64,000 bases of DNA from positions 47,370 to 111,369 of the forward strand of contig DAONTI010000010.1 in the NCBI GenBank assembly GCA_035411585.1. Reading direction: 5' to 3'. Shown one piece after another: positions 198 through 33,944 of this stretch (its first letter is position 1; every line of letters starts with the position of its first letter). The notes below the pieces were generated by a model that was not told the DNA's origin, ran no database searches, and saw only the letters and a program-made list of their open reading frames with translations. The stretch is from Verrucomicrobiota bacterium. GTDB taxonomy: Bacteria > Verrucomicrobiota > Verrucomicrobiia > Limisphaerales > MWDV01. Position numbers and translations under genes: made by a program.

Positions 198-712
198 GTT
201 CCCGTCCTCAGGCGGTCTGCTTCCCTTCACGCGTCAGCGCGCGCGGTTGGCCCATCCTTCCAATCGCCCCCACGAACCCCGCCAGTTCCCGCCCCAACGC
301 CGCCGCCGCCCACTTGCGACTTCTTCTTTCCCACGCCCGTCAGGTGTTTGTAGCGTGAATGCAATCGCGTTTGTGCGTTCCACGCCGCTTCCGTCACCGC
401 TTTGGGCAACCCGGCTTGCCGCGCCAGCACCGTGCGGCTCATGCGCGGGGCGCGGCTGTTGTTCCACGCCGCTTCGATCATCGTCTTGCGCGCCATCCCG
501 TGGCCCAGCTTGGTGATCCCGCCTTGCTTTCGCGTCGTCCCACGGGTGTGTTCGCTCGGGCACAACCCCAGGTAACTCATCAACGCCGGCGCACTCTCAA
601 ACCGATGGAGATCGCCCAACTCCGCCACCAGCGTCGCCCCCGTCAACTCCGCCACCCCGCGCCGACTCATCAACGCTTTGACCCCCGGCTGCCAGCGCCA
701 CCCTTCCCCCAC
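198..712 (-). pseudogene. IS110-family transposase remnant (C-terminal half only, frameshifted)
   Basis: ORF 227..712 reads ...GVAELTGATLVAELGDLHRFESAPALMSYLGLCPSEHTRG...AAWNAQTRLHSRYKHL, the conserved C-terminal region of IS110/IS116/IS902 transposases. The N-terminal DEDD catalytic half is missing; the DUF2726 gene ends only 46 nt away. After GKKKSQV the expected continuation VAAAALGRELAGFVGAI appears only in another frame (stop at 198..200), implying a frameshift near 300..310. Confidence 0.75.
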
Positions 713-757: not shown

Positions 758-1342
758 TCAGAACGTCCGCTGTCCATGACTTGGCCCGTCTGCGGAACGG
801 GCGCCGACGTTGGGGGTGGCTCCCTCACCTGAACGAAATAAACCCTGCACCTGCGCTCGAATCTGCGGGGGCGAATACGACTGCCGCGCTGACACTCGCC
901 AGACGGGAATGCGCGCATCCGTCAACGCCGAATCCACAAGGCTGTCACGGATGCCGCGTTCCAATTTCTCGTGCGTCCGGTCATCCAACTCAATCACGGC
1001 CACAACGCCGAAGTGCGACGAATCACAGAGAACGAAATCAACGTGCTTCCCGGCGATGCGGTTGAAGGCCGTCTGCCAACCACTCCGGTTCGGATTGCGA
1101 ACCGGCTGGACAATGTCGGCCAGCCTGACCTTGGTGAAAATCTGATAATCAGAGGCGACTGCCTGCTGAAGCACGGCGAAGAACGACCGCTCTGCGGGGG
1201 TGAGCAAAGCCGGAACCGCTTCGTAGGTGTTCGCGCGGATCTGCGCGGTTCGTTGCCGGCCAATCAGACGAACAACAGACGCGGCAACCGCGAGCAGCAC
1301 CAGTATTACAACGGCAACAATCAACGGCGGGGGAATGGACAT
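758..1342 (-). CDS. DUF2726 domain-containing membrane-anchored protein (restriction-endonuclease-like fold)
   Basis: An N-terminal TM helix (PPLIVAVVILVLLAVAASVV) is followed by LLTPAERSFFAVLQQAV..YQIFTKVRLADIV..GKHVDFVLCD..AVIELDDRTH, which matches my memory of the DUF2726 family. The C-terminal tail (RSGEGATPNVGARSADGPSHGQRTF) runs toward the IS remnant and may be non-native. Confidence 0.7.
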   Translation of the reverse strand: MSIPPPLIVAVVILVLLAVAASVVRLIGRQRTAQIRANTYEAVPALLTPAERSFFAVLQQAVASDYQIFTKVRLADIVQPVRNPNRSGWQTAFNRIAGKHVDFVLCDSSHFGVVAVIELDDRTHEKLERGIRDSLVDSALTDARIPVWRVSARQSYSPPQIRAQVQGLFRSGEGATPNVGARSADGPSHGQRTF

Positions 1343-2199: not shown

Positions 2200-3921
2200 T
2201 TATTTGATGCGGCGCAAAATGGCTTCGGCAAGCTGACGCCGCAACTTTGGCAACGCGTCGGGTGATTGCTGCCATTGTCCCCAGGTGGGTGCCGCAGTCC
2301 GCACCAGGTTGTCCACCAATGCTTTGCCTCCCAATTGCTCCAGCAGCACGAAATACTCGTAATCTTCCATCCCGTCGCGGAGGCATTTCAGCCGGACCGA
2401 CGCCACCGGGCCTTCAATGCCAGCCTCGTTGCCGGGATAAAACAACGCGCCTTCGCCGTTCCACTGCAATCGGAAGCCCGGCTCATCCCACGGATTCCGG
2501 TCGGGACTGCCCCAGTAAACCGTCGCCCAATAAAGCAGTCCGGTGATGTCGTAACGCCGGTTGAGCCAGGGCGCAATGCGATAAGCGGTCACGGGGAAAT
2601 CCAGTTCCCAATACGGCGGGTTGTCGTCCTTCACCTGTTCGTATTGCGGATGGTACGACGGCGCGGGTTGGACGAGCGCGGTATAGCTCCAGACGCTGTT
2701 GCCTTGAGCGCGCACACGCTCAATGCTGGCCGCGTCAATAAAGCCAAAAAGCGGACACCAAATATCCACCGCCCCGTCCAGCACGCCCCAAGCTGGATCT
2801 TCCGTGTATGGCTGCTCGACCACCAAGCGGCGTAACCTCGGCGCGGCTTCGTGAACCAGCGCGCCCAGTTGCCGCACCCGCTCGTAAGCCCTCGAATCGT
2901 TGGGTTCATCCAGCATGTAAAGGTAGGCGCGTTTGGCCCAACCATGCTTTTCGAGGTAGGCAAACACGGTACGATAGAAATTGATGGCTTGCGAACGGTG
3001 CTCCCCCAAGACGTCGCGGAACGGCGCGCGCGGCACGGGGAAATCAGTCACATGATAACGCGCCACAAACTCGGAGAACTTCTGGTCAGCCGCCGGATCG
3101 AAAACGACCGTTCCGTTGGCTTCTGGTTTCGGCCAAAGCCGATTGGGAAGCGGCGGGTTCAACCGATGCGCCGCCAGCATGGCGATATACCGTTCCTCCA
3201 AGCGGATGTATTTTTCGGGATCGTTTTCCAAGCGGTGATAAGCCCGCAACCGGCCAAAACCGCCGAAATGATTTTCGTGAGTCGGCCCTTCCGGCAAAGT
3301 GAAATCCCAGACGGTCAGTCGCACGGGAATCTTGGCGGGGCTGGCGTTCTTCGCGGTCACCCGCAGCACGCCCTCATAAACGCCGGGAGCGGCATCCCGC
3401 GGGATCCGCACATCCACCCACAACGCTTGATGATGGTCCGGCCATAAGGCAAAACCGGTTGCGCCAAAACGCGGCCCGTCCGGCTTGGCATCGGACCAAC
3501 GAGGTTCGCGCACTGGTTCACCGGTGTAAGGATCTTTGAATGGTATCAACGCATCCGCAATCAAGCCGGGCGCAACCGTGGCTCGCGGCGACGAATGGCG
3601 CACCGGCACCCATGCCACCCGGAAAAGCTCCAGGCTGGTTTCCGGCAGCGACGGCCCCCCGGCTTGGCGCAAAGGGTCGAGGGATGCCGTAACGCCTTCC
3701 AGTTTTTCGTCCACGCCGGTCACTACCACTTGAAACGATTCGGTTTCGCCCCGCGCCCCGGCAATCTCCACAGCGGACGTGCCTGCCAGCGGGCCGGTTG
3801 GCGTCGCGCGCATTGTTGCGGGCAGTGCCGTCAATTGGATGCGTGCCTCGGCGGCCTGCCCGGTCGCGGCCAGGTTCAGCAGGAGTGCTGCGCCCACGAC
3901 GGCAATCAAGATTCGATTCAT
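2200..3921 (-). CDS. secreted DUF4091 / glycoside hydrolase family 123-like protein
   Basis: Signal peptide MNRILIAVVGAALLLNLAATGQAAEA; the longer ORF start at 3951 is also possible. The C-terminal ...GEGALFYPGNEAGIEGPVASVRLKCLRDGMEDYEYFVLLEQL is the characteristic DUF4091/GH123 C-terminal signature as I recall it. Confidence 0.7.
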   Translation of the reverse strand: MNRILIAVVGAALLLNLAATGQAAEARIQLTALPATMRATPTGPLAGTSAVEIAGARGETESFQVVVTGVDEKLEGVTASLDPLRQAGGPSLPETSLELFRVAWVPVRHSSPRATVAPGLIADALIPFKDPYTGEPVREPRWSDAKPDGPRFGATGFALWPDHHQALWVDVRIPRDAAPGVYEGVLRVTAKNASPAKIPVRLTVWDFTLPEGPTHENHFGGFGRLRAYHRLENDPEKYIRLEERYIAMLAAHRLNPPLPNRLWPKPEANGTVVFDPAADQKFSEFVARYHVTDFPVPRAPFRDVLGEHRSQAINFYRTVFAYLEKHGWAKRAYLYMLDEPNDSRAYERVRQLGALVHEAAPRLRRLVVEQPYTEDPAWGVLDGAVDIWCPLFGFIDAASIERVRAQGNSVWSYTALVQPAPSYHPQYEQVKDDNPPYWELDFPVTAYRIAPWLNRRYDITGLLYWATVYWGSPDRNPWDEPGFRLQWNGEGALFYPGNEAGIEGPVASVRLKCLRDGMEDYEYFVLLEQLGGKALVDNLVRTAAPTWGQWQQSPDALPKLRRQLAEAILRRIK

Positions 3922-4288
3922 GGCAATAAATCTGATATTGACGGTTTTCACGGTTTCACATGTCTGACGCCAACAGATCGTGCGGAGTCAAAGGCGCGCC
4001 AAACGCTCATGTGACGGCAGAAAACACCAAACTGAATGTATCTTCCAACGCAGGAGTGGCCTAGAAGTAAATTTTAGAGAATGACAAAAGGAAGCACAAC
4101 GGGAACCTTTACTACTCAAAAAATCGTCCGATACCACGAGGTTGGAAAGACAGAACACGGATTAGTTTCGAGCAGTAAGGTGACATTGCACGACCACGCT
4201 CTGCTCGTCTGATACTACTGCTCACCGTCGCCACCCTTGTTATCTCGTCCTTCAACCTGTGCAGAAGCTCCGTCGAACTTGGGCGCAA

Positions 4289-7078
4289 CTATTGTGTAGC
4301 AATGCGGTAATAGGTTTCCGGTGCGGTCGTGGTCGGCAGGAAAAGTTGCATCGTGTTACCGTCGCCGATGAAGTTGGTGACGTTTATCCAGGGGGCAGTG
4401 GTGAGATTGGTGCGGGATTGCACAGTGTGGGTGCGTCCCGCCTGCGTGAGCAAAGAGAGGCTGAAGTTCGTCCCCGTGTGCCAGGGATTCAGAATCTGGA
4501 CCGGCGTTGCGGGCGGTTCAACAGCGCCAACGACGAAGCGGCGAATCTGACTGGAGGTCAAACTGACTTGAGCATACCAAGAGGAGAACGGCGTGGACGT
4601 TATTATATCCTCCGGATCGCTGATGGTCACTCCCGAAAAATCATTCAGGGTAAAATTAATATGGACCGCGTTGGTGCCAGGCATCAGCGGATTCGGCACG
4701 GTACTGCTCACCACATCATGTGCGAGATTTGTAAACCCGCCACTGACTGTCCTCGAGTCGGAGAGGTACGAACAAAGATAAAGCGAATCATAATTACCGG
4801 GACCGGTCCAGGTGAAGATGTGATCCGTGGAAACCCCAGTTTGCCATTCAGTGGGCGAGGTGACATTCACGGCCGGCAAATCGGACTCCACAAGCGTGTC
4901 AACGTTGACGTTGAATTTGTATTGTCGCTCGGACGGATGGCCCCGGTTGATGTAAATCGTCCAGTCGCCAGCTTCCAACGCCGTGATGAGTGTCGCCAGT
5001 GTGGGTTGGATGGAATAGGAAATCGAATCCTGACCACTGCCATCCCTTTGGGTGGTGAATGTGTTTCCAGGTGAGACAATCTCGTGCGAAGTAATCGGAT
5101 CGGGTTGGACGTAAGTAATTGAGGGATAGGCGAAAAAACCAGGATTGGTTGGATCCGACGACCGCTCGATGTGCAGCGTCATGATCATTTCAATTTCCGG
5201 GATGAATTGCACTTCATCAAGCCAGGCGGCGTCGGCTCCCGCGGTAAAGTCGCCATCCTTGTGATAGGTCCAGCGCAATGTATGCGTGCCAGCCGAAAGA
5301 TTGACTTCGTAAAATTCCCAGCCCGATTCACCGGAGAGCTCCGTTTCACTGTCGCCGTCCACTGTCAATTCGAGGTAGTCGTAGCTGTCAGAATCGTCAC
5401 TCGACACGTTCCACCAGAAGGTCAGTGTACCCGGCCCTTCCACGGTCGTTTCAATCCAGGACTCTTCGTCGTGGTCGATGGCGCCGCTCTGCGCTGCATC
5501 CATGCCATCGTGCGTTTCGTTGGTTTGTCGAAACCATGGAGCGTCTCCGCCGGTGATCCAGAGGAGGCTCGGTTGATCCACGGCATCGGCCAGTTCGCTA
5601 TCACCACCGACATCAGGAATGGTCGAGCCAGGGGCGTCGTAGAGCGCGGCGATTTCCGAGGCACTCAAGATGCCGGAATAAATTTGAACATCATCCAACA
5701 AACCGACATACGCGTGGAAATAATCCCCGCCGATTCGCAAATCTCCCACCTCGGTCAACGCATCCAGAGCGCCAAGGTAACCAACGGCGGCCCCCTCAAA
5801 GTCGCCGTTGACGTAAATCTTCTTTTCGCCGGTGATTTGGTTGCGGGTAACTGCCACATGAACATAGCTGCCAGTGCCTACTACATCCGTGCTCGAATGC
5901 AAAGTGTTGCCCGAGTAGGAGTTTGGATCGCCGGTGAAAAAGGCGGCTTTTGTTCCAGTCAAGGCCAGAGGCACAACATCCGCGGCCGCGCCGGCCAAGT
6001 CGCCCCAGAGGACGCCAGTGCCCACGAAACCGGGATCATCGTCTTCGCCAAACGTCTGTGTCGTTTTTATCCACGCCGACACGGTAAAACTGCCAGCCAG
6101 AACCGGAAACAGGTTTGTCGGCAGCCACAGAGTTGAATAGCCGTAAAGCTCAACGGCGCCCGAACCGGCGATGTTATCGGCGACGTAAGCATGCACGGGT
6201 TGGCCCCAGCTCGAAGAAACCATGATGTGATTTTCGCTCGGAGAAGAATCCCGTCCCAGAAAATCGTTATCGTCGAATTCGTAGTGAGCTTTCAGGCTGT
6301 GCGCCGCCATTCCACCGCCCGCAACACTGAAGTTTGAGATCTTGTAACTATACAACCCGCCAATGCCGGTCCAGTCGCTTATGGGCGCTCCCAAAGCGTT
6401 CGTTGGGGTGGAGAAACTGATTCCAGGGAAATCAAAACGGGAATAACGCACCAAAAGCAGGTTAGGTCCCGGGGTTAATGCAGCCGGACTCCACTCGGTG
6501 GCCGTGCCGGGCAAATAGGCCGACCAGAAGTTGCCAGACGTCTGGTGCGCGGTGTACGCGTAGATGGAAGATAAGGTATTGCTCGGGCCGCTCCAGTGGA
6601 ACGTTGGCGTGGTCGTCACTCCCGTACTGCCGTCCGCCGGAAAATCAATCGTCACCTCGCCTAATGTCTCCGTAGTGAGGTTGTTAATCGACATTGAAAA
6701 TTGATAGAGTTGTTCCGAGGGGTGACCGCGATTCAAATACAATTTCCAGAGGCCATTCGTGCATTCGTGGATGATATCGTTGAGATTGTTTTTCAAGAGG
6801 AAGTCGCTGGCACCATTGGTGTCACCAAATTGCCGCCACACCTGACCACTGGCCGATTCCAGCCAGTGAAAAGTCAGCGGTGGATTTGTGGCCGAGAGCC
6901 CCAACGAAACGGAGTAGAAGTCGAAGTAGAAGTCATGTCCGCGTTGAAGTGAAATTTCGGTGGTAACGTCCGCTTGGGCGAGGGTTGGGGAGCAGGCCGC
7001 GACGGCGCCGGCGATCAACCACCCGCGCCAAACTTGGGCAATCGTGGCCCGAAGGGAAGACAGAAACACGCAGTACAT
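4289..7078 (-). CDS. large secreted LamG-domain protein with bookend-duplicated module and C-terminal YYRI domain
   Basis: 929 aa with a signal peptide (..AACSPTLAQA). The central concanavalin-A-like/LamG segment reads SFTVSAWIKTTQ...YVHVAVTRNQITGEKKIYVNGDF...LRIGGDYFHAYVGLLDDVQIYSGILSASEIAALY. It is followed by a CUB/galactose-binding-like segment (GTLTFWWNVSSDDSDSYDYLELTVDG...GTHTLRWTYHKDGDFTAGADAAWLDEVQF). A roughly 190-aa module occurs twice (WKLYLNRGHPSEQLYQF / WTIYINRGHPSERQYKF). The protein ends ...ETYYRIATQ. Confidence 0.8.
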   Translation of the reverse strand: MYCVFLSSLRATIAQVWRGWLIAGAVAACSPTLAQADVTTEISLQRGHDFYFDFYSVSLGLSATNPPLTFHWLESASGQVWRQFGDTNGASDFLLKNNLNDIIHECTNGLWKLYLNRGHPSEQLYQFSMSINNLTTETLGEVTIDFPADGSTGVTTTPTFHWSGPSNTLSSIYAYTAHQTSGNFWSAYLPGTATEWSPAALTPGPNLLLVRYSRFDFPGISFSTPTNALGAPISDWTGIGGLYSYKISNFSVAGGGMAAHSLKAHYEFDDNDFLGRDSSPSENHIMVSSSWGQPVHAYVADNIAGSGAVELYGYSTLWLPTNLFPVLAGSFTVSAWIKTTQTFGEDDDPGFVGTGVLWGDLAGAAADVVPLALTGTKAAFFTGDPNSYSGNTLHSSTDVVGTGSYVHVAVTRNQITGEKKIYVNGDFEGAAVGYLGALDALTEVGDLRIGGDYFHAYVGLLDDVQIYSGILSASEIAALYDAPGSTIPDVGGDSELADAVDQPSLLWITGGDAPWFRQTNETHDGMDAAQSGAIDHDEESWIETTVEGPGTLTFWWNVSSDDSDSYDYLELTVDGDSETELSGESGWEFYEVNLSAGTHTLRWTYHKDGDFTAGADAAWLDEVQFIPEIEMIMTLHIERSSDPTNPGFFAYPSITYVQPDPITSHEIVSPGNTFTTQRDGSGQDSISYSIQPTLATLITALEAGDWTIYINRGHPSERQYKFNVNVDTLVESDLPAVNVTSPTEWQTGVSTDHIFTWTGPGNYDSLYLCSYLSDSRTVSGGFTNLAHDVVSSTVPNPLMPGTNAVHINFTLNDFSGVTISDPEDIITSTPFSSWYAQVSLTSSQIRRFVVGAVEPPATPVQILNPWHTGTNFSLSLLTQAGRTHTVQSRTNLTTAPWINVTNFIGDGNTMQLFLPTTTAPETYYRIATQ

Positions 7079-7741: not shown

Positions 7742-9772
7742 TTATTCCTGAAGCCGGAAGAATCGTGCGGCACCGGTGACGGGAAGCGAAACGACTTTTC
7801 GTTCCCCCACTACGACCGGCGTTTCCGCGACTGGCTGCCACTCCGGTGTGTTGAGATCCGCCGTGGCCTTGAGTTGCCCCGCCGCGCTTGCCGGCCAGGA
7901 GATTTCGAGATTGCCCTCTTTCAAGGTGGCTTCCAAAGCAACGGCCGGGACGTAGGGCGCGGCGGTGATCGTAACCATGTCCATCCACATGGTCCCACTG
8001 GAGCCGCCATAGCTATAATCCGAATCCCGGGCCACGTAGGCATCCACCCCCGCTCCGGTGGCGGTCCTCTCAAATTCGCTCACTATCCGGAAGCCAAAGT
8101 TGGGATTGTTATCCACTCCCGGTAAACCGGCAAAATCGGCGGAAAACAGCAACCACCCATCCCAGGCATTCGAGCACACCACGTGATCCGTCCAAACGCT
8201 TCCGTTGGTCGTGTATTGAATCCGCCAAAACCGGCTGGCGGATACGTTGTTGTTATGTTCCCAGATCACCACGGGCTGTTGATAACCCACGGTGCTAAAC
8301 TGGTATTGCACGCCGCTGGTTTTGTTGTCGGCGTCCACGGCGGGATAATTACCGGTGCGCAGCGCGCTTTGGTCGGCCTTGTTTGGATCCGAATTGGCGC
8401 TGGCTTGGAACCGGTAAGTGGTGCTGCTGCCAATAATTTGGGCTTCGCCGGTGCCGATGCTGGGGAACAGGGTGCCAGTGCTTCCATCATTGTCCGGTAC
8501 GGGACTGTTAAAATCCCAGAAGGCGGCGATTTCGGAACGCTCCGCCCGGATCATGAACGTGGTTTCGCTCTCCAGTTCGCCATCACTCGCCACCACGGCC
8601 AGCCGGCCAATGCCCCCGCTGGTGGGGGTCAAATGCAAAGTTCGGTTCGCGCCGGTCCCCGTGAAGGTGGCGTCAAAGGTGAGAAAATTCGGCTGGACCG
8701 GCCGTACGCTGACCGAGATTCCTTCGGGGGCGGATTCGAGATCGCCGACCGTGAAGTTGAGGTCTGCCGTCGCGCCCGGGGGGAGGGTTTGGTCGGCGAA
8801 GGCGGAGATGGTCGGCGGGGTGTTGAGCGGCAGGATGTTCACGAGAAACATGCGCTCGGTGTAGCGACCGCCACCGTCGGTGACCCGCACGATAATGCGC
8901 GACGTCCCAAGGGCCCCGGTGGGTACCACAGTCACGGTGCGGCTGCTCCCGCTGCCGCCAAACGTGAGATCCTGGATGAGATTCGGATTGGAAAATTCCC
9001 CGGATACGTACAAATCCCCCGCGGGTGTTTCCGCATCGCCCACGGTGAACGAAATCGGCGGCAGCGAACTGCCGGCGCGCACGATTTGGTCGGGAATCGG
9101 TGAGATGCTGGGCCGGGTGTTGGCTGGATTCACGGGGTTGCCACTGACCGTGACCATGTCACTCCAGAACGTGCCGGCGGTGGCGTAATTGGCCGTGATG
9201 CCGACGTAGCGCTGGTTATCCCCCTCGCCGATGGCGGTGGCTTCAAATTCCGCCACGATCCGCACGCTAAAGTTGGGATTGTTGTCGGCCTCCGGCAAGC
9301 CGGCCAGGTCCACCGTGTGAAAATACCAGACGCTGGGGGTTAGATTAGTCAGGACAATGTAATCGGCCCAGGCGCTGCCATCCGCCGTGTACTGGATGCG
9401 CAAATACCGGCTCGGGGTCGAGTTGTTGTTGTGCTCCCAGCTCAAGGAAATGTCTTCATAGCCCGCCGTGCTGAACTGCAACTCCAGTCCGCTGGTCTTG
9501 TTGTGCTCGGTGGCGGGCGGGAACGAACTGATGCGCAGACAACTGTTGTCGAAGATCCACGGATCGGAACTGGTGCTGTTTTGGAACCGGTAGGCAATGG
9601 TGGGACCAATGACGTTGGCCATGCCGGTGCCGATCTTGGGCTGGAGCGTCCCGGTGGCGCCGTCGTTGTCCGGCTCGCCCTGGGTGTTGTAATCCCAAAA
9701 GGCCACTGTATCCGCCCGCAAAGCGCCGGCGGTGAGGATGAGGATCGCGAGGAAGTGCAATGCAATTTTCAT
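7742..9772 (-). CDS. secreted protein: duplicated uncharacterised ~185-aa domain flanking two Ig/cadherin-like domains, C-terminal FFRL domain
   Basis: 676 aa with signal peptide MKIALHFLAILILTAGALRA. Domain copies start at AFWDYNTQGEPDNDGATGTLQPKIGTG and AFWDFNSPVPDNDGSTGTLFPSIGTG, and both contain WEHNNN, R(I)QYT and NNPNF. Between them lie two Ig-like repeats (..ISFTVGDAETPAGDL.. / ..LNFTVGDLESAPEGI..). The protein ends ..GAARFFRLQE. Confidence 0.8.
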   Translation of the reverse strand: MKIALHFLAILILTAGALRADTVAFWDYNTQGEPDNDGATGTLQPKIGTGMANVIGPTIAYRFQNSTSSDPWIFDNSCLRISSFPPATEHNKTSGLELQFSTAGYEDISLSWEHNNNSTPSRYLRIQYTADGSAWADYIVLTNLTPSVWYFHTVDLAGLPEADNNPNFSVRIVAEFEATAIGEGDNQRYVGITANYATAGTFWSDMVTVSGNPVNPANTRPSISPIPDQIVRAGSSLPPISFTVGDAETPAGDLYVSGEFSNPNLIQDLTFGGSGSSRTVTVVPTGALGTSRIIVRVTDGGGRYTERMFLVNILPLNTPPTISAFADQTLPPGATADLNFTVGDLESAPEGISVSVRPVQPNFLTFDATFTGTGANRTLHLTPTSGGIGRLAVVASDGELESETTFMIRAERSEIAAFWDFNSPVPDNDGSTGTLFPSIGTGEAQIIGSSTTYRFQASANSDPNKADQSALRTGNYPAVDADNKTSGVQYQFSTVGYQQPVVIWEHNNNVSASRFWRIQYTTNGSVWTDHVVCSNAWDGWLLFSADFAGLPGVDNNPNFGFRIVSEFERTATGAGVDAYVARDSDYSYGGSSGTMWMDMVTITAAPYVPAVALEATLKEGNLEISWPASAAGQLKATADLNTPEWQPVAETPVVVGERKVVSLPVTGAARFFRLQE

Positions 9773-9811: not shown

Positions 9812-10570
9812 TTAAGGCGCGACGTCGAGCCCAAATTTGAACACGTTATTCCATCGTTTTTGGGCCACCCATTCGGCGTGTCCGTCGCAAAAATTCATGT
9901 TCGCCCCGGCCGCGCCGTGGTTGTCTTCCGGCGAATCCGGGTAGTCGTTCAAATCCGTCGGTCCGTTGGCATCATCCCCGTCCAACATCAATAAGATTCC
10001 CGCGGGGCCGGGCTTTTCTCCGATCCGCGGCGTGTAGTGGGTGATGACGTAGCCCGCCACCGAGGCTTCGGTTTTCTTAATGCCCCGGATGTTGCCGGAA
10101 ACCTCGTAGCTGTGTCCTTCGTCCCCGCGTTTCTTGGCGATGAACACCAAGTGGCGGGGAACCATGGTCAGATCCGGCTTGTACACCAGGTTGCTGGGAT
10201 TGATGGTATGGCGTGCGCTAGGGCAGATGAAGCTGCGCACAGTGGACACGTAAGTCGGCCACAGCCAAGTCATATCGTCATCGGTGGAATCCCGATCCGT
10301 GGTGGTGCTGTTGACGGGCAAGCGCCAAGTGGGTGCGGTGTAATGGCCGCGGAAGTCGTGGGCGTACATTTGGCTGCCCAAACCCAGTTGCTTGAGATTA
10401 TTCAAACAGGACGTGCGGTTCGCCCGCTCCTTGGCTTTGCCCAGTGCCGGTAAAAGCATGGCTGCCAGGATGGCAATAATGGCGATGACCACCAAGAGCT
10501 CGATCAGAGTGAACGCCAAATTCCGCCGCCAGCCGCCGCTGCGGCCAGGGCCTGTGTGTCGCTGCGCCAT
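9812..10570 (-). CDS. prepilin-type N-terminal cleavage/methylation domain protein (pseudopilin-like, H-X9-DG-type family)
   Basis: [46 protein letters not shown] is the class III signal/pseudopilin N-terminus. The C-terminal [19 protein letters not shown] resembles the H-X9-DG tail, with one extra residue. It is a close paralog of 23848..24657. Confidence 0.9.
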
Positions 10571-10597: not shown

Positions 10598-11530
10598 CTA
10601 TTGGCTCCGTTGCCGCCGCCACCAGAGTAATCCGCCCAGCATCGAAAGCCCGAACAAGAAACCGGACGCCGGCTCGGGTACCGGAGCAACCGAGGCAAAG
10701 GAGGTGCCGATCCGGATTTCATCAAAATCGGTGGAGTACCGCCCCCTGACGCCCACTTGATCCCAGATCGAGTATTGCATCGTTCCTGAGAAGACCGGAG
10801 TGGACAGCGCGCTTTCATCGGTCAGATCGAGGGGATTCAGCCAGACGGAAACTCCGGTCTGCCCATCCACAGCGTCGGGAAACTCCAGTTTCATCACGAA
10901 AAAGGTCTGCAAATCCATCTTGGCGTCGTCGCCAAAATCCGCCGAAGTCACGGGCGCATTTTGCATTTGAATCCCCCAGTTGCCGGTGGTGTTCGGGGTT
11001 ACTTTCCCCAGCCAAAGCGGGTTGCTGGTCCCGCTGTTTTCCAACTCAACAAAGGCGTACCGCGGGCTGGCCGTGGCAATTCCATCGGATTGAGCTAGGA
11101 AACTGACCCAAATGGTGCTGCCCAGTTCACCAATGGGCTCCGACAACAGCCGCTGGTCCCAGGAATTATTGCCGAACGCCGTCCGAATTTGACTGCCTGA
11201 CGTTTGCAAGGTATGGCCAAATCCATCCGTGTACACCAGTGGCGCCACCCGACTACCCGCCGGATAATCGTCGGGATAAACCGGAATACCCGCGTTCTTG
11301 GACCCCCGTGAAGTCCACGCCCCGGCCCAACCGATGCCGCCCGCCAAACCGGCAATGCCTTCGCCCAGCACACTGTCGGAGGCGTACCATTGCACCCGGC
11401 CGTAATCGAACGGTTCATACGCGATCAACTCGGCCGCCGCGCGATCCACCGCCAAGGCCAGGCAGGGCAGGACGGCGAGTAAGAGGCGATACTTGCAGAA
11501 GTAATTTGTGTGGATTTTCATGAGTATCAA
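10598..11530 (-). CDS. PEP-CTERM sorting-domain protein with LamG-like jelly-roll N-domain
   Basis: Has a signal peptide. The N-domain begins LIAYEPFDY..GIGWAGAWT and ends VWLNPLDL...DFDEIRIGTSFASV. The C-terminus VPEPASGFLFGLSMLGGLLWWRRQRSQ has the three parts of a PEP-CTERM signal: PEP motif, TM helix and basic tail. Confidence 0.85.
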   Translation of the reverse strand: MILMKIHTNYFCKYRLLLAVLPCLALAVDRAAAELIAYEPFDYGRVQWYASDSVLGEGIAGLAGGIGWAGAWTSRGSKNAGIPVYPDDYPAGSRVAPLVYTDGFGHTLQTSGSQIRTAFGNNSWDQRLLSEPIGELGSTIWVSFLAQSDGIATASPRYAFVELENSGTSNPLWLGKVTPNTTGNWGIQMQNAPVTSADFGDDAKMDLQTFFVMKLEFPDAVDGQTGVSVWLNPLDLTDESALSTPVFSGTMQYSIWDQVGVRGRYSTDFDEIRIGTSFASVAPVPEPASGFLFGLSMLGGLLWWRRQRSQ

Positions 11531-11844
11531 CTGGGTAAATTCATTAAAACCTTGCCCACCCTAAGCGCATAATTTTTCGGCGTCAAGACAGTCAGTTTGA
11601 AAATTGAAAAATTTTTCCGAATTGTCACCTGCCCACCCTCGTCCCATCATTTGGTTGAAATGAGATGTGACCACTCGCCGCATGCCGGCTCTTTTGCTTT
11701 TCATCGTTGCCCCACTTCGGTTAACTGCTTGGAAATTTTGCGCGGGCGCATCGTCGGCAATCCGTGGCGCCGGGGGTACCGGAATCATTGAAGGCGGTCG
11801 GCAGTTTCAAAAGCGTTTTGCGGTTTAAGGAACTCAAGGATTGT

Positions 11845-12828
11845 ATGAAGCATTACTCGAAAATTTTCCTAATGACCGGCACTGTCGTGCTGGTCTTGGC
11901 CGCGAATGCGGTGGCGGTCGCTGAAACCACGAAACCGTTCCAGGGCATTACCCTGCGGCATGAAAGACTGACCGAGCCCCGGCAGATTGATGTCCACGTG
12001 GTCCGGGTGGATCTCCGGGCGCCGGGAATCCGGTTCAAGGTCACAGAATCATCACGGCCCGGGGAGAGCCGGCTGACCACGGTGCGGGATTCGCTCGCCA
12101 AGGAAAAAGCGCGGGACGCCGCCGCCTGCCTGGCGGTCAACGGCGCCTTCTTCACCTTCAGCCCCAAGACCGGCATCTACCCGCCCCACTGTTACATTGA
12201 GGGGATTGCCGCCAGCGAAGGCGAACTCTATTCGGCCTGGGAAGACATCGCCATTCCGTTCCCGGCTTTCAACCTTTCCAAAGACAATGTTCCCTCCATC
12301 CTCGACAAGCAGGAGGTGATTCCCAATGACCGCTACCGCTCCGTGCTCACCGATATGGAGCATCGCCAGACGTGGGAGGTGGCCTTGGGGCTTCTGGGCC
12401 GGTATTTGAGCAATTATCCGGAACTCCCCGATGACGATATTTCCGGGCACTTTTACAATGCCATCAGTGGATCGCACCGCCTTGTGCGCTCCGGCACCAA
12501 CACCATGGACATAACTTCCTATCCCAAGAACGACGAACCGCATCCCCGGACCGGGATCGGCTACGGCCCCGGGTTTCTCGTCATTGTGGTGGTGGACGGG
12601 CGTAATCCCGGCCACAGCCTCGGTGTCACCTGTCCCGAACTGGCTGATCTTCTGATCAAAGAGGGAGTGGTTGAAGCCGTGAATTGGGACGGGGGCGGCT
12701 CCACCACGCTGGCAATTGCCGATCCGATACCCCGGCTGCTCAATCGCCCCGTCGGCGTCAAAGGCCGGCCCGGCACCGAACGCCCGGTAGGCGCGAGTTT
12801 GATCATTTTTGCCAATCCGGGTAATTAA
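11845..12828 (+). CDS. phosphodiester glycosidase family protein (NAGPA/DUF2233-like)
   Basis: Signal peptide MKHYSKIFLMTGTVVLVLAANAVA (ATG at 11845; the ORF is open from 11764). Motifs AVNGAFF, AISGSHRLVRSG and PRTGIGYGPGFLVIVVVDGRNPGHSLGVTCPELADLLIKEGVVEAVNWDGGGSTTLAI are typical of the NAGPA 'uncovering enzyme' domain family. Confidence 0.85.
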   Translation: MKHYSKIFLMTGTVVLVLAANAVAVAETTKPFQGITLRHERLTEPRQIDVHVVRVDLRAPGIRFKVTESSRPGESRLTTVRDSLAKEKARDAAACLAVNGAFFTFSPKTGIYPPHCYIEGIAASEGELYSAWEDIAIPFPAFNLSKDNVPSILDKQEVIPNDRYRSVLTDMEHRQTWEVALGLLGRYLSNYPELPDDDISGHFYNAISGSHRLVRSGTNTMDITSYPKNDEPHPRTGIGYGPGFLVIVVVDGRNPGHSLGVTCPELADLLIKEGVVEAVNWDGGGSTTLAIADPIPRLLNRPVGVKGRPGTERPVGASLIIFANPGN

Positions 12829-12942
12829 GTCGGACACGAGCCCACCATGACGCGTCAGCACGCATCGCCACCGGCCCGTAGTTTTCGTCGCCCCACCCGC
12901 TCTTTGATGGGGCCGTTCACGCGATGGGGACCGCGGTTTTGG

Positions 12943-13752
12943 ATGGGTGACATAAAATCAATTTTCCGCGCCGCGTTTCTGCTCGGGGCGGCCCTCATTT
13001 TGTCCGGATGCGCATCCCCATCGGCCAAAGTCGGGCAGGTGCGGGTGTTGTGTTACAACATTCGTCACGGGCGCGGGATGGACGGCCGCATTGATCTGGA
13101 GCGCACCGCCCGGGTGATCAAGTCGGTGCAACCGGATTTGGTGGCCGTTTTGGAAATTGACCGGGCCACGCGCCGCTCCGCAGGTGTAGATCAAGTGGCG
13201 GAGCTCGCGCGGTTGACGGGGATGACATACTATTTCGGCAAGTGCCGGGATTATCAGGGCGGCGAGTTTGGGCAGGCGGTGCTTTCGAAATGGCCGTTGA
13301 CCAATGAAGTGTTGCCCTTGCCGGGGAGCCCCGAATTCGGCGCCCGGATTTTGCAAATCAACCGTGTGCAGCCGCCTTCTGGAATTCCCGATTTGATGTT
13401 CCTGAGCACCCACCTCAGTCACGGCGTCAGTCCCGCCGATCGCCTCGCCCAAATTGAATTCATCAATCAATGGTTGCAAACCCAGAGTCCGGACGCCCTG
13501 GCCATCCTCACCGGCGACTTCAACGCAACCCCGGAATCGGAGGAATTGCAACGTCTGTTGCCTCACTGGCGGGATGTCGGGGCGGTGAACTCCGCCGCGA
13601 CGTTCAAGGCTGATCAGCCGAGGATTCGCATTGATTACATCTTCGCCCGTCCCGCAAGCCGGTGGCGGATCATCCAGACGTACGTGCTGGACGATGCCGT
13701 AACTTCGGATCACCGGCCTGTCTTCGCGGTGCTGAAAGCGACGGCCCAATGA
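12943..13752 (+). CDS. endonuclease/exonuclease/phosphatase (EEP) family lipoprotein
   Basis: Lipobox in MGDIKSIFRAAFLLGAALILSGC; the ORF is also open from the ATG at 12847. EEP motifs present: VLCYNIRHG, DLVAVLEID, TGDFNATPES, IDYIFAR, SDHRPV. Confidence 0.85.
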   Translation: MGDIKSIFRAAFLLGAALILSGCASPSAKVGQVRVLCYNIRHGRGMDGRIDLERTARVIKSVQPDLVAVLEIDRATRRSAGVDQVAELARLTGMTYYFGKCRDYQGGEFGQAVLSKWPLTNEVLPLPGSPEFGARILQINRVQPPSGIPDLMFLSTHLSHGVSPADRLAQIEFINQWLQTQSPDALAILTGDFNATPESEELQRLLPHWRDVGAVNSAATFKADQPRIRIDYIFARPASRWRIIQTYVLDDAVTSDHRPVFAVLKATAQ

Positions 13753-15728
13753 ATCCCACTTTCAGGTCCGGTCCGATCATCAGGGCCCGGTTCATCTTGT
13801 TGTGTTTGGTGCTGGCCGCCATCCCGGGTCTGGCGCAGTTGCTGATTTATGAAGACTTCAATTACGAGCGCCGGCAGGGGTTTGTCAGCGCCGCCATTCC
13901 GGGCGAGGGCATAGATGGATTAAATGGCGGGGTGGGTTTCGCCGGTCCGTGGACCACCACCGGAAATTACTTTTCCGGCATCCCAGTTGGTCCCGGAGAT
14001 TACGGTGCGGGGGTCACTTACGGAAATCCGCTTGGCGCGCGCCTGGCCCCGCTGGCCTACAGTGACGGATTCGGCAACCATCTGGTCACCCGGGGACACC
14101 AACTGCGCACGGCCTTCGGCAACCATTCGCGCGAAGTCCGGCGCCTGGCGTCCCCTGTGGGCGGATGCGGAAACACGCTGTGGATGAGTTTTCTGGCGCA
14201 AGCCCACGGGCTGGCCGGCACCTCACGCTACGCCTTCGTGGAACTCGCCAACGCCGACGGCAACGCCATCCGTCTCGGCAACGTCACCCCCGTCTCCTCC
14301 GGGCAATGGGGAGTGCAGGTGTTGAACAGTGGCGGTGGTGCGCCATCGGCCGACTTGGGATTGCCCATGGACGTCCCGACCTTGTTCCTGGCCCGGTTGG
14401 CATATCCGCCAACGCCTGGCGATCCCGCCCGGCTCGCGGTTTGGCTCAACCCGCACAATCTGGTTCATGAAAAGGCGCTGCCCGCGCCGATCATTGAATG
14501 GGATTTTGCACCGGTCGCCTTTGACCAGTTGAGCGTGGCTGGGCGTTACTCCACAGATTTCGATGAGTTGCGTCTCGGCACCCGCTTTGACGCAGTGACG
14601 CCAACGCAACCCGCGCCGGTCGGCGATGCCTGCCTGACCACCGAACGCGACGGTCAGAATCTCCGGCTCAGTTGGCCCGAAGCCTACACCGATGGGTTGG
14701 TGCCACAGGTCTCCCTCGATTTGCAGGAATGGCAGCCGCTGCCCTTGCCGCTAGAGCGCACCAACGGCCAATGGCGGCTGACCGTGCCTCTCGATGGCCA
14801 GCAGCGGTTTTTCCGATTGCATTATCCCGCGCCGGGACCGTCGCGACCGCGGCTCGCCACCCTCGAAGCCACCGGCTGGCAGCCGCAGGAGGTCCGCGCC
14901 GGACTCGTGTATTACGAACGGCAGTTGACCAATTTGTTGGGCAGTCCACAGGTGGTGAACGTGCTGGCGCTCGACCTCGACCACCCCGGCTTGCGTCTCG
15001 AACTGACCGCGATGGATGTCTGGGGGCTTTCCCGCGTTACCGTGCCGGTGCTGGCCGAACATGCCGGCGCGGTCGCGGCTATCAACGGCGGGTTCGGCAC
15101 CGCCCGCACGTTTTCCGAAGTGGGTTACGGCATCATGATTTTTCGCGGGATTGTCTGGCCTTTCGTCAACGATCCCGATTTCCACGAACTCTACGAAGCG
15201 CATGGGCGCAATGCCGTGGGAATTGACGCCGCCGGGGAGTGGCACTTTGCCTCGCGCGGCGCGGAAGGTTGGGAAGTGGGCGCGCGTTGGCCGACGAACT
15301 GGCCGGGCATGGTGCAGGCCATGGCGGGCGGCAGCCAATTGGTGCGGGCCGGTGCGGTCCATCCGTTGGTGGTGCCGGCCACGACGCGCGGGGCGTACCT
15401 CTCGCACAGTGGTTTGCATGACTTGACCTTCAATCGAAATCCGCGTACCGCCATCGGCATCACCAATCATCGGATCGCGGTGCTGGTGACGGTGGCCGGC
15501 CGTTTTCCGGGCATTGCGGAGGGCATGACCTTGCAGGAGATGGCGGAATTGATGTTGTTCATGGGCTGCCGCGACGCCCTCGAACTCGACGGTGGGGGAT
15601 CCTCCACCATGTGGATCGGCCAGCCGCCTTTCGACGGAGTGGTGAATTACCCGACTGACAACGGCCAGTTTGATCACGATGGCCTGCGTTCCCTGCGCTT
15701 GGCCGTCTTAATCATGGAGACGGATTAA
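13749..15728 (+). CDS. fusion protein: LamG-like N-domain (paralog of 10598..11530) + internal FFRL beta-sandwich + phosphodiester glycosidase domain (paralog of 11845..12828)
   Basis: The start ATG at 13749 overlaps the EEP stop (ATGA). Signal peptide MNPTFRSGPIIRARFILLCLVLAAIPGLAQ. The N-domain LIYEDFNYE..GVGFAGPWT..AVWLNPHNL..DFDELRLGTRFDAV aligns along its length with the PEP-CTERM protein. The middle contains ..LRLSWPEAY..QQRFFRLHYP. The C-terminal part has AINGGFG, MAGGSQLVRAG and PRTAIGITNHRIAVLVTVAGR..ALELDGGGSSTMWI. Confidence 0.85.
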   Translation: MNPTFRSGPIIRARFILLCLVLAAIPGLAQLLIYEDFNYERRQGFVSAAIPGEGIDGLNGGVGFAGPWTTTGNYFSGIPVGPGDYGAGVTYGNPLGARLAPLAYSDGFGNHLVTRGHQLRTAFGNHSREVRRLASPVGGCGNTLWMSFLAQAHGLAGTSRYAFVELANADGNAIRLGNVTPVSSGQWGVQVLNSGGGAPSADLGLPMDVPTLFLARLAYPPTPGDPARLAVWLNPHNLVHEKALPAPIIEWDFAPVAFDQLSVAGRYSTDFDELRLGTRFDAVTPTQPAPVGDACLTTERDGQNLRLSWPEAYTDGLVPQVSLDLQEWQPLPLPLERTNGQWRLTVPLDGQQRFFRLHYPAPGPSRPRLATLEATGWQPQEVRAGLVYYERQLTNLLGSPQVVNVLALDLDHPGLRLELTAMDVWGLSRVTVPVLAEHAGAVAAINGGFGTARTFSEVGYGIMIFRGIVWPFVNDPDFHELYEAHGRNAVGIDAAGEWHFASRGAEGWEVGARWPTNWPGMVQAMAGGSQLVRAGAVHPLVVPATTRGAYLSHSGLHDLTFNRNPRTAIGITNHRIAVLVTVAGRFPGIAEGMTLQEMAELMLFMGCRDALELDGGGSSTMWIGQPPFDGVVNYPTDNGQFDHDGLRSLRLAVLIMETD

Positions 15729-33905: not shown

Positions 33906-33944
33906 TCCGGTTGTGAACGCGCGTTTACCCCCCGAAGACTGCCT

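What the first reader, a model, noticed from the sequence alone, without database searches (positions are those of the whole stretch)
10598..11530. Same N-domain carried with two alternative C-termini: PEP-CTERM here, FFRL beta-sandwich in the 13749 paralog
The roughly 270-aa jelly-roll domain of this protein begins LIAYEPFDY and ends DFDEIRIGTSFASV. It aligns end to end with the N-domain of 13749..15728, which begins LIYEDFNYE and ends DFDELRLGTRFDAV. Here it is followed by a PEP-CTERM sorting signal. In the paralog the same position is occupied by the ~65-aa domain ending QQRFFRLHYP. This substitution suggests the FFRL module may be a functional analogue of a sorting or anchoring signal. At minimum it shows the two paralogs are targeted differently.
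Basis: partly seen in the sequence, partly recalled or inferred. Interest (0 to 1): 0.55.

Follow-up and report, generated by a model that had tools for sequence, protein, structure and literature searches.

The report
Lectin paralogs with swapped tail modules
Two neighbouring secreted lectin-like proteins share one domain but continue differently: one has a PEP-CTERM sorting tail, the other a small FN3-like "FFRL" module that here leads into an enzyme domain. The FFRL module is a very common, uncatalogued domain that nearly always closes proteins, so it may be a tether, but no sorting role is shown.

Summary
Protein A (10598..11521, -) and protein B (13749..15728, +) share a ~250-aa domain (47% identity, E 4e-76). 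AlphaFold/Foldseek place that domain in the ConA-like lectin/glucanase fold. A ends in a bona fide PEP-CTERM. B carries a 65-aa FFRL module at the same position, but the module is internal there and is followed by a complete NAGPA phosphodiester-glycosidase domain.

In the N-domain family (47 proteins and 23 genome loci) the tails are mutually exclusive: 19 PEP-CTERM, 10 FFRL at the very C-terminus, none with both. Dockerin tails and N-terminal anti-sigma/TM fusions also occur.

The FFRL module has no Pfam, NCBIfam or PDB match. It folds as a small FN3/Ig-like sandwich (pLDDT 94). It matches about 14,000 protein clusters and occurs in 1-8 tandem copies. In 156 of 167 top proteins the last copy ends within 8 residues of the stop codon.

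The module is therefore a genuine, uncurated, strongly C-terminal module on diverse secreted cargo. Its tandem arrays, internal copies, lack of a TM or cleavage motif and lack of known machinery argue against a PEP-CTERM-like signal. A non-covalent tether or binding module is the best guess. Exosortase could not be checked. FFRL genes recur next to DUF1559 pseudopilin genes, which is an open lead.

The parts
10598..11521 (-). Gene A: 307-aa secreted protein made of signal peptide, ConA-like N-domain and PEP-CTERM tail. The ORF tool's TTG start at 11530 adds 3 residues.
   Evidence: ORF list; called as a 307-aa gene in three metagenome contigs; near-identical protein P0001 in the database.
11432..11521 (-). 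Predicted Sec signal peptide of A (MKIHTNYFCKYRLLLAVLPCLALAVDRAAA|E).
   Evidence: Read from the sequence: basic n-region, hydrophobic core, AAA|E site. The conserved domain starts immediately after it. This is an inference; no signal-peptide predictor was run.
10685..11431 (-). Shared N-domain of A (ELIAYEPFDY ... DFDEIRIGTSFASVAP), a ConA-like lectin/glucanase jelly roll.
   Evidence: 47% identity to B, E 4e-76. 47 homologues found. AF2 model of the B copy has pLDDT 91. Foldseek hits the calreticulin lectin domain, L-type lectins and PL7/PL20 lyases at E ~1e-5. No Pfam or NCBIfam hit.
10607..10684 (-). PEP-CTERM sorting domain of A (VPEP, then GFLFGLSMLGGLLWW, then RRQR).
   Evidence: PF07589 26.2 bits (cut-off 20.7); TIGR02595 22 bits (cut-off 16).
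13749..15728 (+). Gene B: 659-aa secreted protein made of signal peptide, the same N-domain, an internal FFRL module, a Pro-rich linker and a NAGPA phosphodiester glycosidase domain.
   Evidence: ORF list; called as a 659-aa gene in metagenomes; 58% identical over its full length to an Opitutales MAG protein.
13839..14612 (+). Shared N-domain of B (LLIYEDFNYE ... DFDELRLGTRFDAV).
14628..14822 (+). FFRL module of B (aa 294-358, ...LRLSWPEAYTDG...QQRFFRL). A 6-7-stranded FN3/Ig-like sandwich, internal in this protein.
   Evidence: 47.9 bits against the 327-copy HMM. Strands 267-328 of the AF2 model have block pLDDT 79-94.
15066..15665 (+). NAGPA (phosphodiester glycosidase) catalytic domain of B.
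   Evidence: PF09992 E 4e-26. The last 299 aa of B align with the whole mature standalone NAGPA protein 11764..12828 (E 1e-12).
7748..7942 (-). Terminal FFRL module of the 676-aa protein 7742..9772 (ends ...ARFFRLQE, then stop).
   Evidence: 67.5 bits; AF2 model of this module has pLDDT 93.9.
46179..46352 (-). Terminal FFRL module of the 706-aa Big_9/cadherin-like protein 46161..48281 (ends ...QRYFRLFWSPAP).
   Evidence: About 20 bits, full-length alignment to the HMM; Pfam cargo domains.
4298..4483 (-). Terminal FFRL-like module of the 929-aa LamG protein 4289..7078 (ends ...ETYYRIATQ).
   Evidence: About 19 bits, covering HMM positions 21-65; Laminin_G_3 cargo.

Best explanation
A and B are Sec-exported paralogs built on one ConA-like lectin-type domain, probably a glycan-binding or glycan-recognising unit of a phosphodiester-glycan degrading gene cluster.

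A carries a classical PEP-CTERM suffix. After export it should be held in the inner membrane by its C-terminal helix and processed by an exosortase. This step is inferred from the PEP-CTERM literature.

B looks like a fusion of a 'lectin domain + FFRL module' protein with a complete NAGPA phosphodiester glycosidase. The FFRL module therefore ended up between two domains.

The FFRL module itself is an autonomous ~66-aa FN3/Ig-like beta-sandwich and not a cleavable signal peptide. It is an uncurated, very abundant domain seen so far in Verrucomicrobiota-type secreted proteins. It normally closes the polypeptide, singly or as a tandem array, on very diverse cargo.

In this lectin family the module is one of four interchangeable tethering options: PEP-CTERM, FFRL, dockerin, or an N-terminal anti-sigma/TM anchor. 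Its most likely role is therefore a non-covalent retention or binding module that holds the secreted protein on a cell-surface or glycan partner. On this reading it is analogous in purpose, but not in mechanism, to PEP-CTERM.

Shown: the architecture, fold class, terminal bias, mutual exclusivity and fusion-like arrangement. Inferred: binding or tethering as the function, and the exosortase dependence of A.
For: - **Homology and tails.** A and B align at E 4e-76. A's PEP-CTERM scores above the curated cut-offs. B has NAGPA.
- **Family survey.** 19 members end in PEP-CTERM, 10 in a terminal FFRL module, and none has both. Dockerin-like tails occur in L018 and L026, and anti-sigma/TM fusions occur in Blastopirellula, Bremerella and Gimesia.
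- **Repeated swaps.** A rough NJ tree interleaves the tail types. In one Opitutia MAG a PEP-CTERM paralog and an FFRL-terminal paralog overlap by 4 nt on the same strand.
- **Conserved B architecture.** The B-type arrangement is found in L010, L012 and L013. B's C-terminal 299 aa align to the whole mature standalone NAGPA protein next door, which suggests a fusion.
- **FFRL module as a folded domain.** AF2 gives pLDDT 93.9 with 6-7 strands. The best PDB fold neighbours are FN3, Ig and CBM sandwiches. The profile partially cross-hits fn3 arrays and reaches titin FN3 and a CBM32 discoidin domain at E 0.002-0.006.
- **Abundance and position.** The profile matches 14,114 clusters at E<=1e-3. The last copy ends within 8 aa of the stop in 156 of 167 proteins. 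Copy number ranges from 1 to 8.
- **Cargo.** Cargo domains are diverse: lipases, GDSL, SBBP+DUF11, PKD, Big_9, DUF1349 and LamG.
- **Precedent (own knowledge).** Tandem C-terminal repeats of one module are the hallmark of non-covalent anchors and binding modules such as SLH, LysM, GW, choline-binding repeats and CBMs. This is not a tool result.
Against: - No binding partner, ligand or localisation is known for the FFRL module. The tether function rests only on positional analogy and domain grammar.
- The module works as an interdomain piece in the conserved B-type enzymes, and as an internal copy in L035. That fits a passive spacer equally well.
- The terminal-bias statistic comes from the 150 best-scoring representatives, which favour multi-copy proteins, and the seed alignment was mostly terminal copies.
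- Part of the 14,114 count is cross-hits to ordinary fn3 arrays.
- The taxonomic range is barely sampled: Opitutales and Verrucomicrobiota names only.
- Exosortase was not found in the window, so A's processing is unverified.
Confidence: 0.5

Rival explanations
1. The FFRL module is a passive structural FN3-like spacer with no targeting or binding role. Its frequent terminal position would reflect only how such domains accrete at the 3' ends of genes. The PEP-CTERM versus FFRL alternation would be coincidental domain shuffling in a small family.
For: - The fold is a generic FN3/Ig sandwich with no significant specific PDB neighbour.
- The module is internal and interdomain in the conserved B-type enzymes and in a 591-aa protein in L035.
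- Copies are joined by Pro/Thr-rich linkers, as in stalk domains.
- The profile partially cross-hits ordinary fn3 arrays.
Against: - A spacer at a free C-terminus has nothing to space, yet 93% of the arrays end 0-3 residues before the stop.
- W17, W36, R64 and L65 are nearly invariant across very divergent cargo.
- The last copy has a distinct K/R/Q/P-rich 2-3-residue tail, unlike internal copies.
- Within one family the module occupies the slot otherwise taken by PEP-CTERM, dockerin or a TM anchor, with no overlap.
Confidence: 0.28
2. The FFRL module is a true C-terminal secretion or sorting domain recognised by a dedicated, still unknown machinery of PVC bacteria. In logic it would resemble the beta-sandwich C-terminal domain of type IX secretion cargo.
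For: - It is about 66 aa, forms an Ig-like sandwich and sits at the extreme C-terminus of many unrelated secreted cargo proteins with N-terminal signal peptides.
- There are 4 confident and 3 look-alike copies in one 64-kb window.
- It alternates with PEP-CTERM inside one family. That is the argument Haft et al. used for sorting suffixes (PMC3237569).
- The terminal copy has a distinctive basic tail.
Against: - Tandem arrays of up to 8 equally conserved copies and conserved internal copies are unlike any known sorting domain.
- There is no hit to T9SS CTD models or any other sorting-domain model at E<=10, and no T9SS CTD among the top 50 PDB fold hits.
- No candidate machinery was identified.
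- Nothing is known about cleavage.
Confidence: 0.14
3. The FFRL module is a docking module for the DUF1559 prepilin-type proteins encoded next to many FFRL genes. It would attach cargo to, or route it through, a pseudopilus or type IV filament-like apparatus.
For: - All three N_methyl+DUF1559 genes of the window lie immediately upstream, on the same strand, of a gene ending in an FFRL-type module.
- The same adjacency occurs in L034 and L035, which were chosen only through the FFRL module, and in L009 and L011; in L001 the prepilin gene is two genes from the FFRL-terminal gene.
- From my own knowledge, an Fn3 domain carries T2SS recognition determinants in Dickeya PelI. This was not checked here.
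Against: - DUF1559 and N_methyl genes are extremely numerous in these phyla, so adjacency is partly expected.
- Three other short FFRL loci (L036-L038) show no such neighbour.
- One of the three window pairs involves only a weak look-alike module of 6-7 bits.
- No interaction test was possible.
Confidence: 0.08

Closest known systems
PEP-CTERM / exosortase (EpsH) sorting system (Haft et al. 2006, 2012; TIGR02595, PF07589)
   Same: Protein A has the full tripartite tail (PEP motif, TM helix, Arg cluster) at the extreme C-terminus and an N-terminal signal peptide. As described for PEP-CTERM, the tail behaves as a 'sequence suffix' present on only some members of an otherwise full-length homologous family (PMC3237569).
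   Different: The cognate exosortase was not found in the window and cannot be checked. The FFRL module shares none of the tripartite features.
Type IX secretion C-terminal domain (Por_Secre_tail, TIGR04183 / PF18962)
   Same: Both are small (~70-90 aa) Ig-like beta-sandwiches at the extreme C-terminus of many unrelated secreted cargo proteins.
   Different: There is no sequence match to any NCBIfam or Pfam model, and no T9SS CTD appears among the PDB fold hits. FFRL occurs in tandem arrays and sometimes internally. The relatives are Verrucomicrobiota, a phylum not known to have T9SS (my own knowledge).
Fibronectin type III / Ig-like modules of bacterial extracellular enzymes
   Same: The size, strand count and 'LSW' B-strand motif are shared. 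The profile partially cross-hits canonical fn3 arrays, and FN3 structures are among the best fold neighbours.
   Different: The module does not reach PF00041 or any other Pfam model. It has a near-invariant F-[FY]-R-L last strand and an extreme C-terminal bias that ordinary fn3 modules do not show.
'Choice-of-anchor' domains of NCBIfam (domains found ahead of several different C-terminal sorting signals)
   Same: The N-domain is combined with PEP-CTERM, FFRL, dockerin or an N-terminal TM anchor in different members.
   Different: No choice-of-anchor model or any other NCBIfam model matches the N-domain. The family is small, with 47 hits in 5.8 billion proteins.
Non-covalent surface-anchor and binding repeats (SLH, LysM, GW, CBMs, dockerin)
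   Same: These are C-terminal, often tandem, copies of one small folded module on diverse secreted cargo. Dockerin occupies the same slot in two family members.
   Different: There is no sequence or specific fold relationship, and no ligand is known for FFRL.
ConA-like lectins/glucanases (calreticulin lectin domain, L-type lectins ERGIC-53/VIP36/Emp46-47, PL7/PL20 lyases)
   Same: The N-domain model matches these at E ~1e-5.
   Different: Sequence identity is only 8-14% and TM-score 0.35-0.5. There is no Pfam hit, and no catalytic or sugar-binding residues were assessed.

Membership tests
PEP-CTERM (PF07589 / TIGR02595), protein A | HMM match above the curated cut-off | tested here: met
   PF07589 26.2 bits against 20.7; TIGR02595 22 against 16.
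PEP-CTERM (PF07589 / TIGR02595), protein A | Tripartite tail (Pro-Glu-Pro motif, TM helix, basic cluster) at the extreme C-terminus, plus an N-terminal signal peptide | tested here: met
   The tail reads VPEP, then ASGFLFGLSMLGGLLWW, then RRQRSQ followed by the stop. The N-terminus is a hydrophobic leader ending AAA|E (read).
PEP-CTERM (PF07589 / TIGR02595), protein A | Exosortase (EpsH family) encoded in the same genome | not testable with these tools
   No exosortase domain was found in the window ORFs scanned. Only 64 kb of the genome is available.
Type IX secretion C-terminal domain, FFRL module | Match to the Por_Secre_tail or type B CTD models | tested here: not met
   No such hit at E<=10 in Pfam or NCBIfam for 8 modules.
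Type IX secretion C-terminal domain, FFRL module | Single copy at the extreme C-terminus | tested here: not met
   The module is terminal in 156 of 167 proteins, but 141 of 167 have 2-8 tandem copies. It is internal in B and its orthologues.
Type IX secretion C-terminal domain, FFRL module | T9SS machinery (PorK/L/M/N, Sov, PorU/V) in the genome | not testable with these tools
   The whole genome is not available. The nearest relatives are Opitutales/Verrucomicrobiota MAGs.
Fibronectin type III (PF00041), FFRL module | Pfam fn3 match | tested here: not met
   No fn3 hit at E<=10. There are only partial reverse cross-hits of the FFRL profile to fn3 arrays.
Fibronectin type III (PF00041), FFRL module | FN3/Ig-type beta-sandwich fold | tested here: inconclusive
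ConA-like lectin/glucanase superfamily, shared N-domain | Jelly-roll fold similarity to solved members | tested here: met
   Foldseek returns 93 PDB hits at E<=1e-3. The top hits are the calreticulin lectin domain, Emp46/47, ERGIC-53, VIP36 and PL7/PL20 lyases, using a model with pLDDT 91.3.
ConA-like lectin/glucanase superfamily, shared N-domain | Sequence-family membership (Pfam or NCBIfam model) | tested here: not met
   No Pfam or NCBIfam hit to the N-domain.
NAGPA phosphodiester glycosidase (PF09992), C-terminal half of B | HMM match above the cut-off | tested here: met
   92.6 bits against 25, E 4e-26, aa 440-639.
NCBIfam 'choice-of-anchor' domains, shared N-domain | Match to a choice-of-anchor model | tested here: not met
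   No NCBIfam hit outside the PEP-CTERM tail. Only the concept applies, namely one domain with several alternative anchors.

The most novel reading that the evidence does not exclude
The FFRL module is the recognition or docking element of an undescribed surface-display or secretion route of Verrucomicrobiota-type (PVC) bacteria. It would mark thousands of secreted proteins, possibly by binding the DUF1559 prepilin-type proteins so often encoded beside them. It would then be a beta-sandwich counterpart of PEP-CTERM and of the T9SS C-terminal domain.
Probability: 0.15. Interest if true: 0.85.

Novelty: new variant of a known kind. Interest (0 to 1): 0.5.

Why it matters
Tail swapping within a protein family is how several sorting systems were first recognised, including PEP-CTERM/exosortase and GlyGly-CTERM/rhombosortase. 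Here the same logic points to a ~66-aa FN3-like module that is absent from Pfam and NCBIfam. The module matches on the order of 10^4 protein clusters and almost always closes the polypeptide of secreted enzymes and adhesin-like proteins.

How Verrucomicrobia and their relatives retain or display their very large repertoires of secreted glycan-degrading proteins is poorly understood. A defined, easily recognisable tail module gives a concrete handle, together with a small lectin family that carries four alternative tethers. It can be used for phylogenetic profiling, C-terminal proteomics and binding assays.

If the module is only a structural FN3 variant, the result is still useful. It supplies a missing domain model and corrects the reading of protein B as a lectin-FFRL-NAGPA fusion enzyme.

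Tried and rejected
- **Missing-strand Ig fold.** I considered an FN3 fold lacking its G strand, completed by donor-strand exchange. This is rejected: the AF2 model has a complete 6-7-strand sandwich with FFRL as the last strand.
- **Disguised T9SS CTD.** Rejected at the sequence level, and none appears in the top 50 PDB fold hits.
- **Word-indexed protein searches.** Searches with the short FFRL profile returned only 8 and 10 hits. A 66-aa domain cannot reach E<=1e-3 against 5.8 billion sequences, so these searches gave no taxonomy.
- **Metagenome locus scan.** The tool chose a poorly conserved peptide pattern and only recovered the window's own organism.
- **First genome scan.** It was repeated successfully with A4.
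- **Plasmid collection.** tblastn of a tandem FFRL pair found no match.
- **Literature.** Searches for FYRL/FFRL motifs, for Verrucomicrobial C-terminal sorting domains and for DUF1559 found nothing relevant to the module.
- **Cluster look-ups.** Twenty FFRL proteins yielded only one organism name, a Verrucomicrobiota bacterium.
- **Three window C-termini.** The proteins 24715..28887, 29187..32288 and 41889..45296 end in FYRV/YYRV but score only 2-7 bits against the FFRL HMM. I do not count them as members.
Full report
**Observation.**
The ORF at 10598..11530 (-) encodes protein A. It is 310 aa from a TTG start, or 307 aa from the ATG at 11521 that three metagenome assemblies call. The ORF at 13749..15728 (+) encodes protein B, 659 aa.

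BLASTP aligns A residues 20-287 with B residues 16-290 at 47% identity and E 4e-76.

A then ends with VPEP, a hydrophobic helix and RRQR. This tail matches PEP-CTERM above both curated cut-offs: PF07589 at 26.2 bits against 20.7, and TIGR02595 at 22 against 16.

B has a 65-aa segment ending QQRFFRL at the same position, aa 294-358. B does not stop there. After a Pro-rich linker it continues into a NAGPA phosphodiester glycosidase domain (PF09992, E 4e-26, aa 440-639). The last 299 residues of B align with the whole mature part of the standalone NAGPA protein encoded at 11764..12828 (E 1e-12).

B is therefore a lectin-like domain, an FFRL module and a complete enzyme, most simply a gene fusion. 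The 'alternative C-terminus' description does not apply to this particular pair.

**The shared N-domain.**
The N-domain has no Pfam or NCBIfam match. An AlphaFold2 model of B residues 31-360, built on a 48-sequence alignment, is confident (pLDDT 91.3, pTM 0.79).

Foldseek against the PDB returns the ConA-like lectin/glucanase jelly roll. The hits include the calreticulin lectin domain, the L-type lectins Emp46/47, ERGIC-53 and VIP36, and PL7/PL20 lyases. They come at E ~1e-5, TM 0.35-0.5 and 8-14% identity. 'Jelly-roll' is therefore right at the fold level, and a glycan-recognition role is plausible.

The surrounding genes fit that reading. They include two NAGPA genes, an endonuclease/exonuclease/phosphatase-family gene, a GDPD and a glycerol-3-phosphate oxidase-type enzyme. 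They also include GH2, GH123, GH127, GH141-like and sulfatase genes.

**Family survey.**
A search of 5.8 billion proteins with A's N-domain found only 47 homologues. Reading their sequences and checking by HMM and regular expression gives these classes:
- 19 members have signal peptide, N-domain and PEP-CTERM.
- 10 members have signal peptide, N-domain and one FFRL module ending at the very C-terminus ('...RQFFRLQ(Q)(P)').
- 18 members have neither tail. Most of these are Planctomycete proteins in which an anti-sigma-type N-terminus and a TM helix precede the N-domain.
- No member has both tails.

A scan of one genome per species found 23 loci, and the closest are Opitutales, Opitutia and Verrucomicrobia MAGs. 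These loci add several architectures:
- Three B-type lectin-FFRL-NAGPA proteins (L010, L012, L013). L013 is 58% identical to B over its full length.
- More PEP-CTERM versions, including one in Poriferisphaera and one in Pirellulales.
- Two proteins in which the N-domain is followed by a dockerin-like tail (L018, L026).

A rough NJ tree of the N-domains interleaves PEP-CTERM and FFRL tails within the Verrucomicrobial clade (no bootstrap). In one Opitutia MAG a PEP-CTERM paralog and an FFRL-terminal paralog overlap by 4 nt on the same strand.

The tails are mutually exclusive, and FFRL is a real alternative C-terminus in this family. The family also behaves like the 'choice-of-anchor' domains named in NCBIfam. 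Tail swapping of this kind is the pattern Haft and colleagues described for PEP-CTERM, LPXTG and GlyGly-CTERM (PMC3237569).

**The FFRL module.**
Eight modules gave no meaningful hit in Pfam or NCBIfam even at E<=10. Two profiles gave no significant PDB sequence hit. The best matches were titin FN3 and a CBM32 discoidin domain at E 0.002-0.006, and FN3con at E 0.3.

An AF2 model of the terminal module of the 7742..9772 protein is confident (pLDDT 93.9). It shows a complete 6-7-strand sandwich whose last strand is FFRL. Foldseek against the PDB gives only generic FN3, Ig and CBM neighbours (E >= 0.15, TM 0.4-0.59), with no T9SS C-terminal domain in the top 50.

A 13-sequence profile searched exhaustively against 1.84 billion cluster representatives matched 14,114 clusters at E<=1e-3 and 867 at E<=1e-10. 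Some of these are partial cross-hits to ordinary fn3 arrays. P0124 and P0126, for example, are PF00041 arrays. This also suggests a distant FN3 relationship.

I analysed the 150 best representatives together with the earlier hits by local hmmsearch, 167 proteins in all:
- Each carries 1-8 tandem copies, and 107 have two.
- Every copy ends in F-[FY]-R-L.
- The last copy ends within 8 residues of the stop in 156 of 167 proteins, mostly within 0-3 residues.

The residues after the last copy are rich in K, R, Q and P. Internal copies are instead followed by A/T/S and Pro-rich linkers.

Cargo is diverse. It includes lipases/esterases, GDSL, SBBP propeller with DUF11, PKD, Big_9/cadherin-like, DUF1349 and LamG domains.

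In the window the HMM confirms four copies:
- the C-terminus of 7742..9772 (67.5 bits);
- the internal copy of B (47.9 bits);
- the C-terminus of 46161..48281 (about 20 bits);
- the C-terminus of 4289..7078 (about 19 bits).

Three further proteins end in FYRV or YYRV but score only 2-7 bits, and I do not count them.

**Interpretation.**
What is shown is this. FFRL is an autonomous, folded, uncurated FN3/Ig-like module with a striking C-terminal bias and promiscuous cargo. In this lectin family it occupies the slot otherwise filled by PEP-CTERM, dockerin or a TM anchor.

It does not have the architecture of a PEP-CTERM-type signal. It lacks a TM helix, a basic cluster and a cleavage motif. It also does not behave like the one known beta-sandwich sorting domain, the T9SS CTD, because it forms arrays of equally conserved copies and sits internally in conserved enzymes.

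From established knowledge, tandem C-terminal copies of one small module are typical of non-covalent anchors and binding modules such as SLH, LysM, GW and CBMs. My best explanation is therefore that FFRL retains or targets the protein by binding a surface or glycan partner. On that reading it is analogous in purpose, not in mechanism, to PEP-CTERM. I hold this at about 0.5 overall. The architectural statements are firm, and the function is inferred.

The main rival is a passive spacer (0.28). It is weakened by the observation that a spacer at a free C-terminus has nothing to space, and by the near-invariant W, W and R-L positions. A dedicated sorting domain (0.14) is not excluded.

That A and B are targeted differently is a sound inference. 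A's dependence on an exosortase could not be verified.

**A lead noticed on the way.**
All three N_methyl+DUF1559 prepilin-type genes in the window lie immediately upstream, on the same strand, of a gene ending in an FFRL-type module: 9812..10570 precedes 7742..9772, 23803..24657 precedes 24715..28887, and 48435..49520 precedes 46161..48281.

The same adjacency appears in two metagenome loci reached only through the FFRL module, L034 and L035. It also appears in L009 and L011; in L001 the prepilin gene is two genes from the FFRL-terminal gene. It is absent from three short loci, L036-L038.

These genes are very numerous in PVC genomes, so this needs a genome-wide test. If it holds, it suggests a docking or routing relationship with a pseudopilus-like apparatus. 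That is the most novel reading not excluded, at a probability of about 0.15.

**Verdict.**
The PEP-CTERM half is ordinary. The FFRL half points to a large, uncatalogued, terminally biased module family whose role is open. I rate the finding as a new variant of a known kind with interest 0.5.

Noticed in passing
window 9812..10570(-), 23803..24657(+), 48435..49520(-); L034:10330-11157; L035:6469-7311; L011:10033-10872; L009:5271-5990: Prepilin-type N_methyl+DUF1559 genes sit immediately beside genes that carry FFRL modules. This holds for all 3 such genes in the window and for several unrelated loci. Three short FFRL loci (L036-L038) lack this neighbour. It could be a functional pairing, or it could reflect the high density of these genes in PVC genomes.
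   Followed up: partly
L018:7050-8981, L026:7137-8927; P0030-P0045; L019, L027-L030: In Planctomycetota the same ConA-like N-domain is followed by a dockerin-like tail (two loci). Alternatively it sits at the C-terminus of proteins with an anti-sigma-factor-like N-terminus and a TM helix (Blastopirellula, Bremerella, Gimesia). In those proteins it would serve as an extracytoplasmic sensor domain.
   Followed up: partly
L011:7728-8936 and 8933-10030 (Opitutia MAG PWMU01000136.1); B-type gene at L012:7980-9974: One genome carries a PEP-CTERM paralog and an FFRL-terminal paralog as overlapping same-strand genes, plus a lectin-FFRL-NAGPA paralog about 10 kb away. The differently tailed versions therefore coexist and do not replace one another.
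   Followed up: partly
window 29187..32288(+) and 41889..45296(+); also 24715..28887(+): Two large paralogous Big_9/cadherin-like proteins end in a ~92-aa module '...RYYRVR(V/I)(V/A)P', and a 1390-aa protein ends '...AFYRVVLP'. The FFRL HMM scores them only 2-7 bits. They may represent a second, related family of C-terminal modules.
   Followed up: partly
window 7742..9772(-): The 676-aa FFRL-tailed protein has no Pfam or NCBIfam hit. By eye it contains an internal duplication of a ~250-300-aa unit ('TVAFWDYNTQGEPDNDGATGTL...LRIQYTADGSAW' and 'IAAFWDFNSPVPDNDGSTGTL...WRIQYTTNGSVW').
   Followed up: no
terminal versus internal FFRL copies in P0048-P0204: The last copy of an array is followed by 2-3 residues rich in K, R, Q and P, for example ...FYRLRK and ...FFRLQQP, often with Pro as the final residue. 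Internal copies are followed by A/T/S and Pro-rich linkers.
   Followed up: partly
window 227..712(-), 758..1342(-), 2200..3951(-); L006/L007:15823-17670 versus L008:15822-17573: There is an IS110-family transposase fragment and a DUF2726 gene next to the GH123 gene. In two metagenome versions the GH123 gene call is merged with DEDD_Tnp_IS110/Transposase_20 domains, while a third version and the window have the intact 583-aa GH123. This looks like an insertion polymorphism between strains.
   Followed up: no
window 11764..15728, 32406..36061, 49583..61612: The window looks like a glycan and phosphodiester-polymer utilisation island. It holds two NAGPA genes, an EEP-family phosphoesterase, a GDPD and a glycerol-3-phosphate oxidase-type enzyme. 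It also holds GH127, GH2, GH123, a glutaminase-A-like six-hairpin enzyme, GH141-like beta-helix proteins and a sulfatase.
   Followed up: no
L036:229-1620 and 1680-2030: Downstream of one FFRL-terminal gene lie two further FG-GAP-like secreted protein genes. The first ends '...LFFQLLHP', an FFRL-like variant. FFRL-tailed genes can therefore occur in tandem runs.
   Followed up: no
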